Shown: positions 1-62,036 of the stretch, in pieces | How positions within the stretch are numbered: the first letter of the stretch is position 1 | Layout: each line of letters starts with the position of its first letter | IMG/VR virus record: IMGVR_UViG_2974541498_000001 | Location: 1-64,000 of that record | DNA from: a virus | Lineage: Duplodnaviria > Caudoviricetes | Reading direction: 5' to 3' (one strand) | DNA: 64,000 bases | Program-made: the position numbers and the translations under genes | Notes under the pieces: model-generated | Told to the model about the DNA's origin: nothing | The model's input: only the letters and a program-made list of their open reading frames with translations | Database searches by the model: none

Positions 1-207
1 ATGGAAACTATTTCAGAAAAGCAACAAGACTATTTACGGACTTTAATGAGTAATAATTATTCCGTTCTTAATGTTACCCCAGAGGAGTTAGTTAGCAAAT
101 ATCTAGATAGCCAAGAAGCTACTTTTGATAATCTTAGTAAGGCAGATGCCTCTGTTCTTATTGGGGTGTTAAGTGCTTTAAATAAGTATGAAAAGAAGGT
201 TAAGTAA
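1..207 (+). CDS. hypothetical protein
   Basis: ORF track; TAATG overlap with next gene. Confidence 0.6.
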   Translation: METISEKQQDYLRTLMSNNYSVLNVTPEELVSKYLDSQEATFDNLSKADASVLIGVLSALNKYEKKVK

Positions 208-797
208 TGGGACTATTTAATAATAACGAAGAAAAGTTAAATAAGCTATTAGAAGAATTAGGATCATTAAATGCTAAAGTAGATTTAATGACTAATAAGC
301 TAGACTCTTTATCTTCTAATAAGCTAGACTCTTTATCTTCTAATAAGCCAGACCATTTATCTTCTACTGAGGTAAAAAAGGAATACTCTGATGTAAAAGC
401 TAATAATTATAAAGAATATACTAAGAATGCTTATACTAAGAATGCTCCCGTAAAGGTTATTAAAGGGTCTGATGTTAAAATTTACCCTACAGTTTCTTCT
501 GCTGTTCGGGACTTAAAAGTCCCATATAGCCGGGTTAGAAGTCACATTAAGACGATTGACGGCTATCGAGTAATTAATATCAAATCGGTAAATAATCGTT
601 CAAAGTTTGAAGGAATTCCAGTTACTACTTATAAATCTGGCAATGTAATTAAGGAATACCCATCAAAGAGGGCTATTATTGAAGATCTGCATATTGCAAC
701 CAACACTCTAGATACTTTGCTTAAAAAGAATAATAAAGGATATTTTATTAACTTAGAAGATTTAGAAAAGTCCAATAATATGGTCAATTTTGTTTAA
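207..797 (+). CDS. putative DNA-binding protein with NUMOD1-like motifs
   Basis: Two motifs 'KIYPTVSSAVRDLKV' and 'IKEYPSKRAIIEDLHI'. Confidence 0.5.
   Translation: MGLFNNNEEKLNKLLEELGSLNAKVDLMTNKLDSLSSNKLDSLSSNKPDHLSSTEVKKEYSDVKANNYKEYTKNAYTKNAPVKVIKGSDVKIYPTVSSAVRDLKVPYSRVRSHIKTIDGYRVINIKSVNNRSKFEGIPVTTYKSGNVIKEYPSKRAIIEDLHIATNTLDTLLKKNNKGYFINLEDLEKSNNMVNFV
292..363 (+). repeat. 3 x 24-bp in-frame tandem repeat (NKLDSLSS)
   Basis: ctaataagctagactctttatctt x2 plus one degenerate copy. Confidence 0.9.
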
Positions 798-843: not shown

Positions 844-2385
844 ATTTTAAGTAGATTAAAACAGCTACTATTAGGTATTTCTATTTTAGTAGCTAGTCTG
901 CTTATGATTGGTTTCGGAAGCCAAAGTAAGGCACAAGCAAGTACTATTGGAAAAGTTTTTGATACTTCTGAATGGCAGGGATCTTGGACTGATGCGCAGG
1001 TTAAGTCTCTATCTAAAGAAGTTAGTTTCCTTATCATGCGGGTACAATATGGATCAGCGTATAAGGATAAGACTTTTAACCATAACTTACGATTAGTTAA
1101 TAAATATCATATTCCGTATGGTGTTTATAGCTTTAGTATGTATACAAGTGCTAGCGATGCTAGAAGTGAAGCTAGATATTTACATGCACGGGCACCAAAA
1201 GCATTATTTTATGTTAATGATGCCGAACAGCATACAACAAGTTCATATTCTACAGCGACTACTGCTTGGGGTTCCGAGATGCAATCATTAACTAGTAGAC
1301 CTGTAATATTATATTCATACCGATATTTTTATAACCAATATATTGGTACGAGGAAGAACTATGATGCATTCTGGTTAGCTTCTTATCAGACCTATTTACC
1401 AACTCCGAAAAACTATGCTTTATGGCAGTTTAGTGACAAAGATTATTCTCATTCATTGGGGTTATCTTTAGATTCTAATAAGGTCATCACTAGTCAGAAG
1501 CCATTATCATTCTGGATTGGTAAAACTAAGGCAAATAAAGATAAAACAGCCTATATTGCTGGAGGATATAAAAAGGGTGAAACAGTTGTTCTTAATAAGA
1601 ATGCTTATAAATTCTTTAATCCAGCAGTAAAGATTGCTTCTTCTGCTAAGGGCCATAAGTATACAATCAGTAATACGCAATCTGTTAAGAGTAGTAGCTC
1701 TAAACAAGCAGTACTTCTTAAAAAAGATGGTAAAATTATTGGTTGGGCTTTAGCTCAGGATGTTCATTATCCTAATAAATATATTAAGAGTATGCCAAAA
1801 GGAAATACTATTCAAGCGATTACTAAGATCAACCAATACAAGGATATTGAATTTAACAAGAAGGCTGGGAAGTCTTATGCTAAAAACAAAATATTCCATG
1901 TAAAGGGAATAGCTACTTCTAAGGGTGGCGCTACAAGATTCTTATTAGATAATGGGAATTATGTAACAGGTAATCAAGCTAACGTTCGCCAGACATCTCC
2001 TTATGTTATTCATTTAAGTTCTAGTAGCCGAATGGTTGCTTTGACTGGAATTAAAGGATATAAGGATAAGAATTTAACTAAGCCTGTTAAAGGTAAGGGA
2101 CACCATAAAGGAACAGTATTTACTGCTAAAGGTATCGTTGCCCGAGATTCATCTCATTACAGTGTTCTTATGAGTAATGGGTACTATGCGACGGCATATC
2201 GGGCAAATGTAGCTACTACCAATAAAGCAGTAAAATCCTCACATAAGACATATACAGTAAAGTATGGAGATTCTCTATGGGGAATTGCTAATTCTCATAG
2301 TACAACTATTTCTAAGTTAACTTCTCTTAACGGTATTAGTGCTTCTAGTTATATTTATCCGGGACAAAAACTAATCATTAAGTAA
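844..2385 (+). CDS. endolysin: signal peptide, GH25 muramidase, two DUF5776-like cell-wall-binding repeats, LysM
   Basis: GH25 motifs (DTSEWQG, YVNDAE, LWQFSD, LDSN); C-terminal LysM 'YTVKYGDSLWGIA'. Frame stays open upstream of ATG904 to an RBS-preceded ATT at 841/844. Confidence 0.9.
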   Translation: MLSRLKQLLLGISILVASLLMIGFGSQSKAQASTIGKVFDTSEWQGSWTDAQVKSLSKEVSFLIMRVQYGSAYKDKTFNHNLRLVNKYHIPYGVYSFSMYTSASDARSEARYLHARAPKALFYVNDAEQHTTSSYSTATTAWGSEMQSLTSRPVILYSYRYFYNQYIGTRKNYDAFWLASYQTYLPTPKNYALWQFSDKDYSHSLGLSLDSNKVITSQKPLSFWIGKTKANKDKTAYIAGGYKKGETVVLNKNAYKFFNPAVKIASSAKGHKYTISNTQSVKSSSSKQAVLLKKDGKIIGWALAQDVHYPNKYIKSMPKGNTIQAITKINQYKDIEFNKKAGKSYAKNKIFHVKGIATSKGGATRFLLDNGNYVTGNQANVRQTSPYVIHLSSSSRMVALTGIKGYKDKNLTKPVKGKGHHKGTVFTAKGIVARDSSHYSVLMSNGYYATAYRANVATTNKAVKSSHKTYTVKYGDSLWGIANSHSTTISKLTSLNGISASSYIYPGQKLIIK

Positions 2386-2397
2386 TACTATATTAAA

Positions 2398-2570
2398 AAC
2401 AGAGAGAAGGAAGTAGCTGGTTACTACTTCTAACTCGAATCTGGTTAGGGCCAGAAAATAAGATACTCCCTAAAGTATCTTGTCTAGTTAGACTAACCAT
2501 CAAAGCTAGGCAGATTGCCTCTAATAAGTTTGTCTTGATTCTAAGACAGACAAGTTAGGGGCTTTTATTT
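2398..2570 (+). ncRNA. candidate structured ncRNA with two kissing-loop pairs and a terminator
   Basis: CTATATTA at 2388; five hairpins; loops TTAGGG/CCCTAA and TGGTTA/TAACCA are complementary; no ORF. Confidence 0.65.
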
Positions 2571-2613: not shown

Positions 2614-3789
2614 ATGAAATTAGCTATTTTAGGAGTTAAAGAGAAAACTGATTCTGGATATAACTATTATTCTTTTCAGAAGAATATGGCGGGGGAAAAC
2701 TTACAAGCAAAGTCACGACAACTTATTAAAAATAGATGGGTAAATGTTAAAAGGATTTCTGTTTTTCCTACTGCCAATTTTAGCTTTATTGACTTTGGAA
2801 GAAAAGATTATGCTTTGAATACTAATAATACATGTATTTTACTAGTAGATACTGAGTTAGACGAAAAGGATGTTAAGGGAATTTCTATTGGATCTTCAGA
2901 GACCACTAGATTTGGTAAACAAAAAGTTAAATTAATTAAAGAAGTTACTGATCCATATGATTTAGATTTCTTAACAGACATCTATTTTAAATATGCTACT
3001 CCCGATAATAGAAGCAATGCTACCTATGATCTGTTAACTTGGGATTTTATGTATTATTGTAGTAATAGTAATAAAGAATCCTTTAAGAAACTTATAGCTG
3101 ATTATACTTTTAATAATGCGAGTGAAATTAAACAATATGGTATTGATTTCTCTATATCCGACAAAAACTTTATCCTATGGAAATGGTTAGTGGATTATAA
3201 GGATATTTTAGCTAAAGAAGAGTCCTATCAAGTTAAATTTGGTATGTACGGGGAATTCAAAATTTCTAATAAATCTATTAAAAATCTTGTTAAAGAAAAG
3301 GATATTTCCTTCAAATATATTAAGGCATTACCACATAAATACTTTCTTCAGGCAATTAAGATGTTACCTAAAGAATATACAAGAAATTTAAGTAAAGAAG
3401 ATAAAGTATTCTTATATTTCTCCCTTTATTCTGATGAACAAGAAGCAGTTTCCTTAGTTGAAAAAGGACAGGTAGATATTAATGATCTATTTAAGACTGC
3501 TTGGAACACTGGAGAATTAATTAATAAAGATAGGGAAACTATTTTAAAAGACAGAGATTATAAGCCAGAAGAAGAAACTTGCTATGATGATGATTATGAC
3601 TATGCTTGGGATAATGAATTCTTCACTGAATATACTGTGGTAATTGATGATCAATACGATATTGTTCAAGAAAAGTTTTCCTGGAAGGATTATTTGGATA
3701 GAGACCTTCTTGAAAAAATATCTAAGCGCTATGCACCACGAGTTAAGGATATGCTGTTGAATAAAGGATGGGAAAACTATGAAGATTAG
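2614..3789 (+). CDS. hypothetical protein
   Basis: 391 aa; TGnTATAAT promoter and AAGGAG RBS. Confidence 0.8.
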   Translation: MKLAILGVKEKTDSGYNYYSFQKNMAGENLQAKSRQLIKNRWVNVKRISVFPTANFSFIDFGRKDYALNTNNTCILLVDTELDEKDVKGISIGSSETTRFGKQKVKLIKEVTDPYDLDFLTDIYFKYATPDNRSNATYDLLTWDFMYYCSNSNKESFKKLIADYTFNNASEIKQYGIDFSISDKNFILWKWLVDYKDILAKEESYQVKFGMYGEFKISNKSIKNLVKEKDISFKYIKALPHKYFLQAIKMLPKEYTRNLSKEDKVFLYFSLYSDEQEAVSLVEKGQVDINDLFKTAWNTGELINKDRETILKDRDYKPEEETCYDDDYDYAWDNEFFTEYTVVIDDQYDIVQEKFSWKDYLDRDLLEKISKRYAPRVKDMLLNKGWENYED

Positions 3790-15527: not shown

Positions 15528-16132
15528 TAACTTTTAAATAATCGTTATATGAAATAATACTGTATTAGGATATCTGTTTATAATTATATTCAGGTATCCT
15601 TTTTATTTGGGAAATATATGAGTCTGCTGGTAATATCTATAAAGGAATTCTATTAGTAGCCTATTAAGGGAAACTATACATATATAGAATGTTAGTAGTA
15701 ATTATAGAGAATTATATAAGGGGCTATTAGTAAGCCTACTAGGGGGAATACTTGGGTAATCCTTCTTCAGCTAATAACTACTAATAGATATTACAGTAAT
15801 AAGCCAATTAAGGAACGTTAGTAGCTATTCAATTATTCCCTAACTAAGGGATACTATTATCCCCTAACTAATAGATTAGTAACTATGCCTAGCGCCTGTG
15901 GGGGAGTCGGCCCCAAATAACCCAATATTTAACATGAGTACTCAAGTAGTCGCATAGTGTACCATATATCTATTACAATTCCACAATATCCCCCATAAAT
16001 AGGCATTTAATAGCCTGCTAATAGAAATGATATAATAGAATAAGAAAGCCTTTTATGAAACGAATAAAAACTTACTAGTAGTGAACTAGAAATCCTTCTT
16101 AGATTATCTTCTATTAATTGGTTATAAAATCA

Positions 16133-61849: not shown

Positions 61850-61915
61850 ATTACTTATTTCTATAATCTTATTATAGCATACTATCTAATATTCTGTCAA
61901 GCACTTTATAATAAA

Positions 61916-61963
61916 AAGTAGCAATAGGAATCGAACCTATTAATCACCCTACCAAGGGCTACT
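61916..61963 (-). ncRNA. anticodon-less mini-tRNA
   Basis: AGTAGC/GCTACT acceptor; CCCT-TGGT-AGGG D-like arm; ATAGG-TTCGATT-CCTAT T-arm; own TTGACA/TAAGAT promoter. Confidence 0.6.
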
Positions 61964-62036
61964 AGCGATTACTAACAATCGATAAACACATCTTATCATA
62001 TTAATTTAAATATGTCAAGATATTAAAACAAATATT

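What the first reader, a model, noticed from the sequence alone, without database searches (positions are those of the whole stretch)
2398..2570. Late ncRNA with two nested kissing-loop pairs
Seen: an ORF-free ~170 nt between a late motif and a terminator, with five hairpins. H1 gaagtag/ctacttc, loop CTGGTTA. H2 tctgg/ccaga, loop TTAGGG. H3 aagatact/agtatctt, loop CCCTAA. H4 tgtctag/ctaggca, apical loop CTAACCA. H5 is the terminator. H2:H3 loops (6 bp) and H1:H4 loops (TGGTTA/TAACCA) are exactly complementary. The H2-AAATA-CCCTAA part resembles the P1/pseudoknot of pistol ribozymes, but the GCG core is missing. Inference: a compact tertiary RNA, or an intermolecular ring-forming RNA like phi29 pRNA, made during assembly.
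Basis: partly seen in the sequence, partly recalled or inferred. Interest (0 to 1): 0.75.

Follow-up and report, generated by a model that had tools for sequence, protein, structure and literature searches.

The report
Four-hairpin late RNA after phage endolysin
Just after its endolysin gene, a Levilactobacillus brevis myophage carries a ~170-base non-coding unit: a capsid-type promoter motif, four RNA hairpins whose loop tips match each other in two nested pairs, and a strong terminator. It matches no catalogued RNA family, but only four near-identical copies exist, so the proposed loop contacts cannot yet be tested.

Summary
Window 2386-2570 has no credible ORF. It carries a CTATATTA promoter-like motif, four stable hairpins (H1-H4) and a long intrinsic terminator.

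- **Fold:** the energy is well below shuffles (z = -4.8).
- **Loop matches:** TGGTTA/TAACCA (H1:H4) and TTAGGG/CCCTAA (H2:H3) are exact. Random loops of the same sizes and pooled loop composition gave two such disjoint pairs once in 300,000 draws.
- **Promoter:** the 16-mer around the motif occurs twice in the 136.6-kb genome, here and before the major capsid gene.
- **Covariation:** H3 and the terminator each show one compensatory pair.

The genome has the size and GC content of Lb. brevis phage SAC12B. Only three homologues turned up (ENFP1 and two IMG/VR contigs, 92-95% identical), and all four loops are invariant in them. Loop pairing is therefore neither supported nor refuted by covariation.

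Rfam gives nothing, including pistol and phi29 pRNA. The more distant phages 3-521 and LpeD have a plain terminator at this position, so H1-H4 is an added module.

Best reading: a late, stand-alone or 3'UTR-type structured small RNA whose loops make RNA-RNA contacts. A packaging-RNA role is unsupported, and the function is unknown.

This scan has noted kissing-loop phage RNAs before, on unrelated DNA.

The parts
2381..2396 (+). Promoter-like 16-mer AGTAATACTATATTAA, containing the CTATATTA motif (2388-2395). It overlaps the endolysin stop codon (2383-2385).
   Evidence: CTATATTA occurs 15 times in the genome, 11 of them outside long ORFs (binomial P 1.8e-6). The 16-mer occurs only here and at 69431, 47 nt before the major capsid gene. 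It is invariant in all 4 copies.
2401..2570 (+). Predicted non-coding RNA of about 170 nt. The 5' end is inferred at 6-9 nt after the motif; the 3' end lies in the U tract.
   Evidence: No ORF. Fold z -4.8. No Rfam match. Unannotated in ENFP1.
2404..2436 (+). H1: core stem 2410-2416/2424-2430 with a 7-nt loop CUGGUUA, extended by GAG/CUC (2404-2406/2434-2436) across a 2x2 internal loop.
   Evidence: Pair probabilities 0.94-0.99. G2413 is A in ENFP1, L011 and L046, giving an A.C mismatch.
2440..2455 (+). H2: 5-bp stem with a 6-nt loop UUAGGG.
   Evidence: Pair probabilities 0.86-1.0. Invariant in the 4 copies.
2460..2481 (+). H3: 8-bp stem with a 6-nt loop CCCUAA.
   Evidence: Compensatory change A2461-U2480 to G-C in L011 and L046.
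2482..2511 (+). H4: 7-9-bp stem with a 14-nt loop AGACUAACCAUCAA.
   Evidence: Pair probabilities 0.78-0.99. The top pair is lost in L011/L046 (U2489 to C).
2418..2423 (+). H1 loop segment UGGUUA, complementary to UAACCA at 2494-2499 in the H4 loop.
   Evidence: Read directly from the sequence. Duplex -5.6 kcal/mol. Invariant.
2494..2499 (+). H4 loop segment UAACCA. It can pair with the H1 loop, or as CUAACCA (2493-2499) with UGGUUAG at 2442-2448 in H2.
2445..2450 (+). H2 loop UUAGGG, complementary to the H3 loop CCCUAA (2468-2473).
   Evidence: Read directly from the sequence. Duplex -6.4 kcal/mol. Invariant.
2468..2473 (+). H3 loop CCCUAA, partner of the H2 loop. With the adjacent stem bases it reads CUCCCU, which resembles an anti-Shine-Dalgarno sequence.
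   Evidence: Read directly from the sequence; for candidate matches.
2517..2570 (+). Intrinsic terminator: a 9-bp outer stem and a 10-bp inner stem (2517-2562), followed by UUUUAUUU.
   Evidence: -24 kcal/mol. One compensatory pair (C-G to U-A) and three one-sided changes that keep pairing.

Best explanation
This is a small non-coding RNA gene of a SAC12B-like Levilactobacillus brevis myophage (Herelleviridae, Tybeckvirus-like). It sits directly behind the endolysin gene and uses the same terminator.

**Transcription.** A -35-less CTATATTA promoter element overlaps the endolysin stop codon. It is identical over 16 nt to the one before the major capsid gene, and should start an RNA of about 170 nt near 2401-2404. 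The same sequence is also present as the 3' UTR of endolysin messages that start at the 814 motif.

**Fold.** The RNA folds into four hairpins in series, followed by a long terminator hairpin.

**Loop contacts.** The loops are built to pair RNA to RNA. H1 (UGGUUA) and H4 (UAACCA) can kiss within one molecule. H2 and H3 have 6-nt loops that are wholly complementary, but they are joined by only 4 nt. They probably cannot kiss within one molecule.

**Status of each step.** Shown: the hairpins, the terminator, the loop complementarity and its non-randomness, and the class of promoter motif. Inferred: late timing, the 5' end, a discrete RNA species, the loop pairing itself, and cis versus trans pairing. 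The biological role (a regulatory or self-associating RNA made together with lysis and virion genes) is a guess.
For: - **Fold:** z -4.83; nearly all hairpin pair probabilities above 0.8.
- **Compensatory pairs:** one in H3 and one in the terminator. Three further one-sided changes in the terminator keep pairing.
- **Loop complementarity:** two disjoint 6-nt pairs occurred once in 300,000 random-loop draws, about 3e-6. No other 120-nt window of the genome has two such pairs.
- **Promoter motif:** 11 of 15 copies lie outside long ORFs (P 1.8e-6). They sit before the endolysin, tail-fibre and capsid genes and in the tRNA region. The 16-mer is shared only with the capsid gene.
- **Late promoters in the family:** Kayvirus late promoters likewise keep only a -10 motif (PMC9241854).
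- **Not coding:** the only sizeable frame changes length between copies, because of a 1-nt indel.
- **An added module:** 3-521 and LpeD have a plain single-hairpin terminator right after their endolysin genes.
- **Conservation:** 6 of 112 RNA core columns vary, against 57 of 493 endolysin third-codon positions and 10 of 43 columns in the next spacer (Fisher p 0.059).
Against: - There are no transcript data.
- Only 4 copies are known, 92-99% identical. All 12 kissing pairs are invariant, so covariation says nothing about them. With 12 variable columns in about 170, zero changes in the 24 loop positions has p about 0.16 by chance.
- H1 carries an A.C mismatch in 3 of the 4 copies.
- The RNA is no better conserved than the endolysin gene it travels with.
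- An ordinary nested alternative helix (2442-2448 with 2493-2499) lies only 3.6 kcal/mol above the MFE, so some of the complementarity may serve folding alternatives rather than kissing.
- No target enrichment was found in the phage genome.
Confidence: 0.45

Rival explanations
1. It is a passive 3' UTR. The hairpins only protect the endolysin message from 3' exonucleases and strengthen termination ahead of the same-strand early genes. The promoter-like motif and the loop complementarity have no function of their own.
For: The unit lies between the endolysin stop codon and the only terminator of that gene. It is conserved at the same level as the endolysin gene. A sigma-A-type extended -10 (TGGTATAAT, 2583-2591) restarts transcription just downstream.
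Against: Related phages manage with a single terminator hairpin at this position. Chance gives two nested 6-nt loop matches at about 3e-6. A 16-nt identity to the capsid promoter is unlikely to be idle.
Confidence: 0.25
2. It is a conformational switch or folding leader. The repeated GGUUAG-type and CUAACC-type segments form alternative ordinary helices. Examples are 2442-2448 with 2493-2499, or UCUAACU 2429-2435 with AGUUAGA 2486-2492. These would set folding order or termination efficiency, and so read-through into gene 2614-3789.
For: The alternative helix is the MFE while the terminator is still incomplete (3' ends at 2520 and 2545), and lies only 3.6 kcal/mol above the MFE in the full RNA. 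Dyad symmetry about position 2459 covers three blocks (local alignment p 0.026).
Against: In the full-length ensemble the probed long-range alternative helices (H1 loop with H4 loop, H2 loop with H3 loop) have pair probability near zero. The 2442-2448 with 2493-2499 helix was not probed there; its constrained fold is 3.6 kcal/mol above the MFE. The terminator is very strong (-24 kcal/mol) and has no competitive antiterminator. The resemblance between H2 and the terminator's 3' arm is lost in the three relatives. The downstream gene has its own promoter, and homology breaks right after the terminator.
Confidence: 0.12
3. It is a trans-acting base-pairing small RNA. The C-rich H3 and H4 loops (CUCCCUAA, CUAACCAUC) are seeds for G-rich sites, such as the GGGGG-type ribosome-binding sites of late phage genes or host messages. 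The G-rich H1 and H2 loops would be internal masks.
For: CUCCCU is complementary to the AGGGGG-type ribosome-binding sites seen before the endolysin, tail-fibre and other motif-driven genes. There is an 8-bp match to UUAGGGGG in the ribosome-binding site of the gene after the 132698 motif (read from the contexts). C-rich loops are the usual seeds of Gram-positive small RNAs (own knowledge).
Against: A scan of the phage genome gave about as many 9-12-nt matches as I would expect by chance (own estimate, no shuffle control was run). None clustered at start sites. BLAST against 401 Lactobacillaceae genomes gave only short coding-sequence coincidences. This reading does not explain why both partner sequences sit in the same RNA.
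Confidence: 0.12
4. It is a DNA-level element: the nested inverted hexamers form a dyad-symmetric binding site for a phage or host protein.
For: Both hexamer pairs share almost the same centre (2458.5 and 2459), read directly from the sequence. Dyad alignment p 0.026.
Against: The half-sites are 23 and 76 bp apart. Each sits exactly in a hairpin loop. The stems show RNA-type compensatory and G-U-preserving changes.
Confidence: 0.04
5. It is a phi29-pRNA-like packaging RNA that forms a ring on the portal.
For: One RNA carries complementary loops that are poorly placed to pair in cis, and the loop cores are GGUU/AACC. Self-association of pRNA through intermolecular kissing is documented (PMC4201828 abstract).
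Against: No match to the Rfam pRNA model. There is no three-way junction. The promoter is late-type. The phage is a Herelleviridae myophage, a group not known to need a packaging RNA (own knowledge). The RNA is absent from the related genera tested.
Confidence: 0.02

Closest known systems
3'-region small RNAs with their own promoter inside or at the end of the upstream gene, sharing its terminator (the 'type I' class, e.g. DapZ, MicL; own knowledge)
   Same: A promoter element overlaps the end of the upstream coding sequence. The RNA ends at that gene's intrinsic terminator, so the same sequence exists both as a 3' UTR and as a short RNA.
   Different: It is in a phage and driven by a phage late-type -10-only motif. 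No seed or target has been identified. It has four hairpins with mutually complementary loops, rather than one seed region.
phi29 pRNA (Rfam RF00044; self-association described in PMC4201828)
   Same: One RNA carries two loops that are complementary to each other and could pair between molecules. It is phage-encoded and of similar length (about 170 nt).
   Different: No sequence or structure match. No three-way junction. Two 6-nt pairs rather than a single shorter loop-loop pair (about 4 bp, own knowledge). Late-type promoter. The host genome is a myophage with no known need for a packaging RNA.
Fully complementary 6-7-nt kissing hairpins (HIV TAR/TAR*, ColE1 RNA I/RNA II; own knowledge)
   Same: The 6-nt loops of H2 and H3 are complementary over their whole length, as in TAR/TAR*.
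   Different: Here both partners lie on one transcript, 4 nt apart. No experiment or covariation supports the contact.
Non-coding RNAs of Herelleviridae phage K seen by RNA-seq (snc001-007, lnc001-002; PMC9241854)
   Same: Unannotated intergenic RNAs of a phage of the same family, with no known function. Late promoters there also lack a -35 element.
   Different: No homology was detected. Model R1 found nothing outside the SAC12B/ENFP1 group, but it was run only on Lactobacillus phages, not on phage K. The phage K RNAs are not described as having complementary loops.
Pistol ribozyme (Rfam RF02679)
   Same: A hairpin loop is complementary to a nearby segment over 6 nt.
   Different: No cmscan match at E <= 10. 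Both partners here are hairpin loops.

Membership tests
Pistol ribozyme (RF02679) | Match to the covariance model (hairpin, 6-bp pseudoknot, conserved core) | tested here: not met
   cmscan of 2300-2700 against all 4227 Rfam families at E <= 10 returned only a chance caiA hit at E 8.6.
Pistol ribozyme (RF02679) | Self-cleavage at the G-U site | not testable with these tools
   Needs an in vitro cleavage assay.
phi29-type pRNA (RF00044) | Match to the covariance model | tested here: not met
   No hit at E <= 10 or at the gathering threshold over the whole window.
phi29-type pRNA (RF00044) | A three-way junction presenting the two interacting loops | tested here: not met
   The MFE, centroid and consensus folds all give hairpins in series with 9-, 4- and 0-nt linkers. 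The only enclosing helix predicted, between the 5' leader and the 3' U tract, is weak.
phi29-type pRNA (RF00044) | Loops complementary to each other that pair between molecules | tested here: inconclusive
   The complementarity is present. Pairing in trans is inferred from geometry only.
phi29-type pRNA (RF00044) | Genome context: a small phi29-like podophage, with the RNA under an early promoter at the genome end | tested here: not met
   The genome is a 136.6-kb Herelleviridae phage. The promoter motif is the one found before the capsid and tail-fibre genes.
3'-region small RNA with its own promoter (type I) | A promoter at or inside the 3' end of the upstream coding sequence | tested here: met
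   Met at the sequence level only. The 16-mer shared with the capsid promoter overlaps the endolysin stop codon. There are no transcript data.
3'-region small RNA with its own promoter (type I) | Shares the intrinsic terminator of the upstream gene | tested here: met
   The single terminator at 2517-2570 is the first one after the endolysin gene.
3'-region small RNA with its own promoter (type I) | A discrete stable RNA that regulates targets by base pairing | not testable with these tools
   The in-silico target scan was uninformative.
Intrinsic (rho-independent) terminator | A GC-closed stem followed by a U tract, with the stem kept through substitutions | tested here: met
   -24 kcal/mol stem followed by UUUUAUUU. 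One compensatory and three pairing-preserving changes among the 4 copies.
Kissing-loop RNA contacts | Watson-Crick complementarity between hairpin loops beyond chance | tested here: met
   6 + 6 nt, p about 3e-6. No other 120-nt window of the genome has two such pairs.
Kissing-loop RNA contacts | Covariation of the loop pairs among homologues | tested here: inconclusive
   All 12 loop-loop pairs never vary in the 4 copies.

The most novel reading that the evidence does not exclude
The RNA is a self-assembling molecule. H1:H4 closes each monomer. This would be the pRNA principle arising independently in a large myophage, with an unknown client such as lysis timing, virion assembly or sequestration of a host factor.
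Probability: 0.15. Interest if true: 0.8.

Novelty: new member of a known kind. Interest (0 to 1): 0.5.

Why it matters
This one is a compact, clearly bounded unit under what looks like the capsid-strength late promoter. If it is transcribed as predicted, it should be abundant late in infection.

Its design, two nested pairs of perfectly complementary hairpin loops, is unusual and easy to test with loop-swap mutants and native gels. If the loops drive self-association, it would be a second natural example of the pRNA principle outside phi29-like phages. If they do not, it is still an uncatalogued RNA element that travels with the endolysin gene of L. brevis phages being considered for control of beer spoilage.

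Tried and rejected
- **Rfam:** the whole window at gathering thresholds gave only tRNAs. The region at E <= 10 gave only a chance caiA hit. ARAGORN found no tRNA or tmRNA in the region.
- **Homologue hunting:**
  - BLAST against 'phages' found only ENFP1.
  - Three IMG/VR pattern scans found L011 and L046. They also returned an unrelated coding family and random hits, which were rejected by BLAST and by covariance model R1.
  - Anchoring on the flanking proteins in IMG/VR found the same two contigs.
  - Two metagenome scans were empty.
  - The genome-contig scan with the endolysin found only Lentilactobacillus senioris enzymes.
  - BLAST of the RNA against 401 Lactobacillaceae genomes gave only short coincidences. 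One recurrent hit is the reverse complement of the recF Walker-A coding sequence.
  - R1 found no paralogue in the genome and nothing in LpeD, Semele or 3-521.
- **Unavailable sources:** The contigs encoding the 80-85% relatives of the downstream protein (P0002-P0007) could therefore not be fetched. The 521B record is not in the phage copy.
- **tRNA-related ideas:** D-loop-like CUGGUUAG and T-loop-like CUCGAAUC segments, and a 9-nt match between the H4 loop and the D-loop of the phage tRNA-Ile. The tRNA finders gave no support, and duplexfold outputs against the tRNAs were meaningless.
- **Antisense to rRNA** (a lead from earlier scan notes): no recurrent rRNA-type match among the 401 genomes.
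- **SPO1-type -35 element (CGTTAGA):** not seen upstream of the motif copies.
- **Phage sigma factor:** Pfam Sigma70_r4_2 was not found in the genome. 'Late' therefore rests only on which genes carry the motif.
- **Small ORF:** a CTG-started 14-codon frame has its RBS-like purine run only about 2 nt upstream, and becomes 48 codons in L011 through an indel, so it is not coding.

Full report
**Where we are.** The window is the first 64 kb of a 136,608-bp virus record with 32.4% G+C. Size and G+C equal those published for Lactobacillus brevis myophage SAC12B (PMC6563214). The nearest record available is Levilactobacillus phage ENFP1 (Herelleviridae, Tybeckvirus).

The finding lies between two genes. 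Upstream is the endolysin gene (904-2385; PHROG 291, E 2.5e-55). Downstream is an unknown 391-aa gene (2614-3789; no PHROG), which has its own extended -10 element, TGGTATAAT at 2583-2591. ENFP1 annotates nothing in this gap.

**The observation.** All five hairpins are in the sequence at the stated places, and the MFE, centroid and consensus folds all recover them.
- The fold is far better than shuffles: -62 against -41.6 +/- 4.2 kcal/mol, z -4.83. The opposite strand folds less well, z -3.1.
- Nearly all pair probabilities of H1-H4 and the terminator are above 0.8. Only the H3 base pair A2460-U2481 (0.37) and the top H4 pair (0.78) fall lower.
- UGGUUA (2418-2423) and UAACCA (2494-2499) are exact complements, as are UUAGGG (2445-2450) and CCCUAA (2468-2473).
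- With random loops of the same four lengths and the pooled composition of the four loops, one 6-nt match appears in about 1% of trials. Two disjoint matches appeared once in 300,000 trials, about 3e-6.
- Folding 9100 windows of 120 nt across both strands of the genome gave 14 windows with one complementary loop pair and none with two. That scan missed the region itself, because a 120-nt piece lacking the full terminator folds differently.
- There is no ATG or GTG, and TTG frames are at most 8 codons. The only longer frame starts at CTG and changes from 14 to 48 codons in L011 through a 1-nt indel.

**The promoter motif.** CTATATTA occurs 15 times in the genome. Eleven copies lie outside ORFs of 100 aa or more, although only 16.5% of the genome does (binomial P 1.8e-6).
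- Copies sit 30-60 nt before the tail-fibre-like 736-aa gene and the 486-aa gene. Another lies about 90 nt before the endolysin ATG, and three lie in the tRNA region on the tRNA strand.
- The 486-aa gene is the major capsid protein, 45% identical to A511 Cps.
- The 16-mer AGTAATACTATATTAA occurs only twice, before the capsid gene and here, where it overlaps the endolysin stop codon.
- No -35 element is evident. In phage K of the same family, late promoters also keep only a -10 motif (PMC9241854).
- 'Late' is therefore an inference from the genes served. No sigma-like protein was detected with Pfam PF08281.

**Relatives and what they show.** Exhaustive searching gave three homologues: ENFP1 and the IMG/VR contigs L011 and L046, which are identical to each other in this region. 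Everything else was negative or unavailable, as listed under Tried and rejected.

Among the four copies, 12 of about 170 columns vary.
- Two changes form a compensatory pair in H3 (A-U to G-C).
- Two form a compensatory pair in the terminator (C-G to U-A).
- Three keep terminator pairs through G-U.
- One breaks an H1 pair: G-C becomes A.C in three copies.
- One removes the top H4 pair.
- Three lie in linkers or the leader.

H3 and the terminator therefore have direct support. H2 and H4 are simply invariant, and H1 is weakened in most copies but still predicted. The 24 loop positions of the two proposed contacts never vary. Given 12 variable columns, that has p about 0.16 by chance and says nothing either way.

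The RNA core varies at 6 of 112 columns. Endolysin third-codon positions vary at 57 of 493 (Fisher p 0.059), and the spacer after the terminator at 10 of 43. The block of endolysin plus RNA plus terminator is conserved at 91-99%. Homology then falls to 60-85% in the next gene.

In the more distant L. brevis and L. plantarum Herelleviridae phages 3-521 and LpeD, the endolysin stop codon is followed within about 20 nt by one ordinary terminator hairpin. H1-H4 is thus an extra module of the SAC12B/ENFP1 group and is not needed for termination.

**How the loops could work.** This section is inference from the anatomy.

The four complementary segments are nested and share a centre at about 2459. 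A third block, UCUAACU 2429-2435 against AGUUAGA 2486-2492, adds to the dyad. H2's UGGUUAGGG is the exact reverse complement of the H3 and H4 loop motifs merged (CCCUAACCA), and the H1 loop repeats its first seven bases.

Several pairings therefore compete. A plain helix of 2442-2448 with 2493-2499 is the MFE while the terminator is unfinished, and lies 3.6 kcal/mol above the MFE in the full RNA. The four-hairpin form dominates at equilibrium.

In that form, H1 and H4 are separated by 51 nt, and the H4 loop has spare bases, so they can kiss in cis. H2 and H3 have 6-nt loops with no spare base and a 4-nt linker (3 nt in L011). A TAR/TAR*-type kiss stacks the two stems end to end over about 19 bp, which a 4-nt linker cannot span (own knowledge of kissing-complex geometry). 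The H2:H3 contact should therefore form between molecules, or only when H2 melts and UUAGGG enters the H3 loop as a pseudoknot.

Nested, dyad-symmetric complementarity is what an antiparallel homodimer would need. Loop duplex energies are -6.4 and -5.6 kcal/mol before any stacking bonus.

**What it is not.**
- Not pistol, pRNA or any other Rfam family.
- Not a tRNA or tmRNA.
- Not a repeat: model R1 finds one copy per genome.
- Not antisense to a conserved host RNA. BLAST against 401 Lactobacillaceae genomes gave only short coding coincidences, such as the recF Walker-A sequence.
- A scan of the phage genome for sites complementary to the four loops gave about as many matches as I would expect by chance (own estimate; no shuffle control was run), with no clustering at start codons. 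The H3 apex CUCCCU is nevertheless complementary to the G-rich ribosome-binding sites of several motif-driven genes.

**Verdict.** The element is best read as a small late non-coding RNA gene that shares the endolysin terminator, with loops designed for RNA-RNA contact. I put about 0.75 on it being a genuine structured RNA element. I put about 0.45 on the fuller statement that includes functional loop pairing.

The main rival is a passive 3' UTR. A folding switch and a base-pairing regulator are further rivals. A pRNA-like packaging role is very unlikely.

It is uncatalogued and confined to a small phage group, so I class it as a new member of a known kind (phage-encoded structured small RNAs). 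Earlier notes of this scan describe kissing-loop RNAs in other, unrelated phages; none shares sequence with this one.

Noticed in passing
window 2614-3789 (and L011, L046, L001): The 391-aa gene just after the terminator matches no PHROG family (Pfam not run here; the database's precomputed Pfam column is empty for it and its relatives). It diverges sharply between phages whose endolysin is 93-98% identical at the nucleotide level: nucleotide identity is 61-68% against L011, and 80-85% against ENFP1. It looks like a fast-evolving or recombining early gene with its own extended -10 promoter.
   Followed up: partly
whole genome G000; e.g. 814, 43275(-), 48916(-), 48948, 67420, 69438, 132698, 59393(-), 60626(-), 61691(-): CTATATTA is a -35-less promoter-like motif, enriched outside ORFs (11 of 15 copies, P 1.8e-6). 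It precedes the endolysin, tail-fibre and capsid genes and also lies in the tRNA region, so the tRNA region may be served by the same class of motif.
   Followed up: partly
window 61915-62006 (-): ARAGORN reports a 92-nt tRNA-like gene with an undetermined, 2-base 'anticodon' (ta) at the end of the tRNA cluster. Rfam's tRNA model did not list it at its gathering score.
   Followed up: no
window 15838-15870 (+): CCCTAACTA occurs twice, 24 nt apart, and is complementary to the H2 segment of the RNA with one G-U pair. It may well be a coincidence.
   Followed up: no
window 2517-2541: The 5' arm of the terminator is the reverse complement of a sequence that encodes the RecF Walker-A peptide (GKTNLLEA) in many Lactobacillaceae. 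This produced recurrent short BLAST hits. I judge it a coincidence.
   Followed up: yes
L157 (phage 3-521, after its endolysin) and L156 (LpeD): In 3-521 the order endolysin, terminator, extended -10 promoter (TGTGGTATACT), next gene is the same as here, but without the four-hairpin module. LpeD also has a plain terminator, but its next annotated gene lies on the opposite strand. LpeD's annotation leaves about 470 nt after the endolysin gene unannotated.
   Followed up: partly
window 207-797 versus ENFP1: The 196-aa ORF upstream of the endolysin is only 68% identical in nucleotides to ENFP1 but 88% to L011. This is a mosaic boundary on the other side of the conserved lysis block.
   Followed up: no
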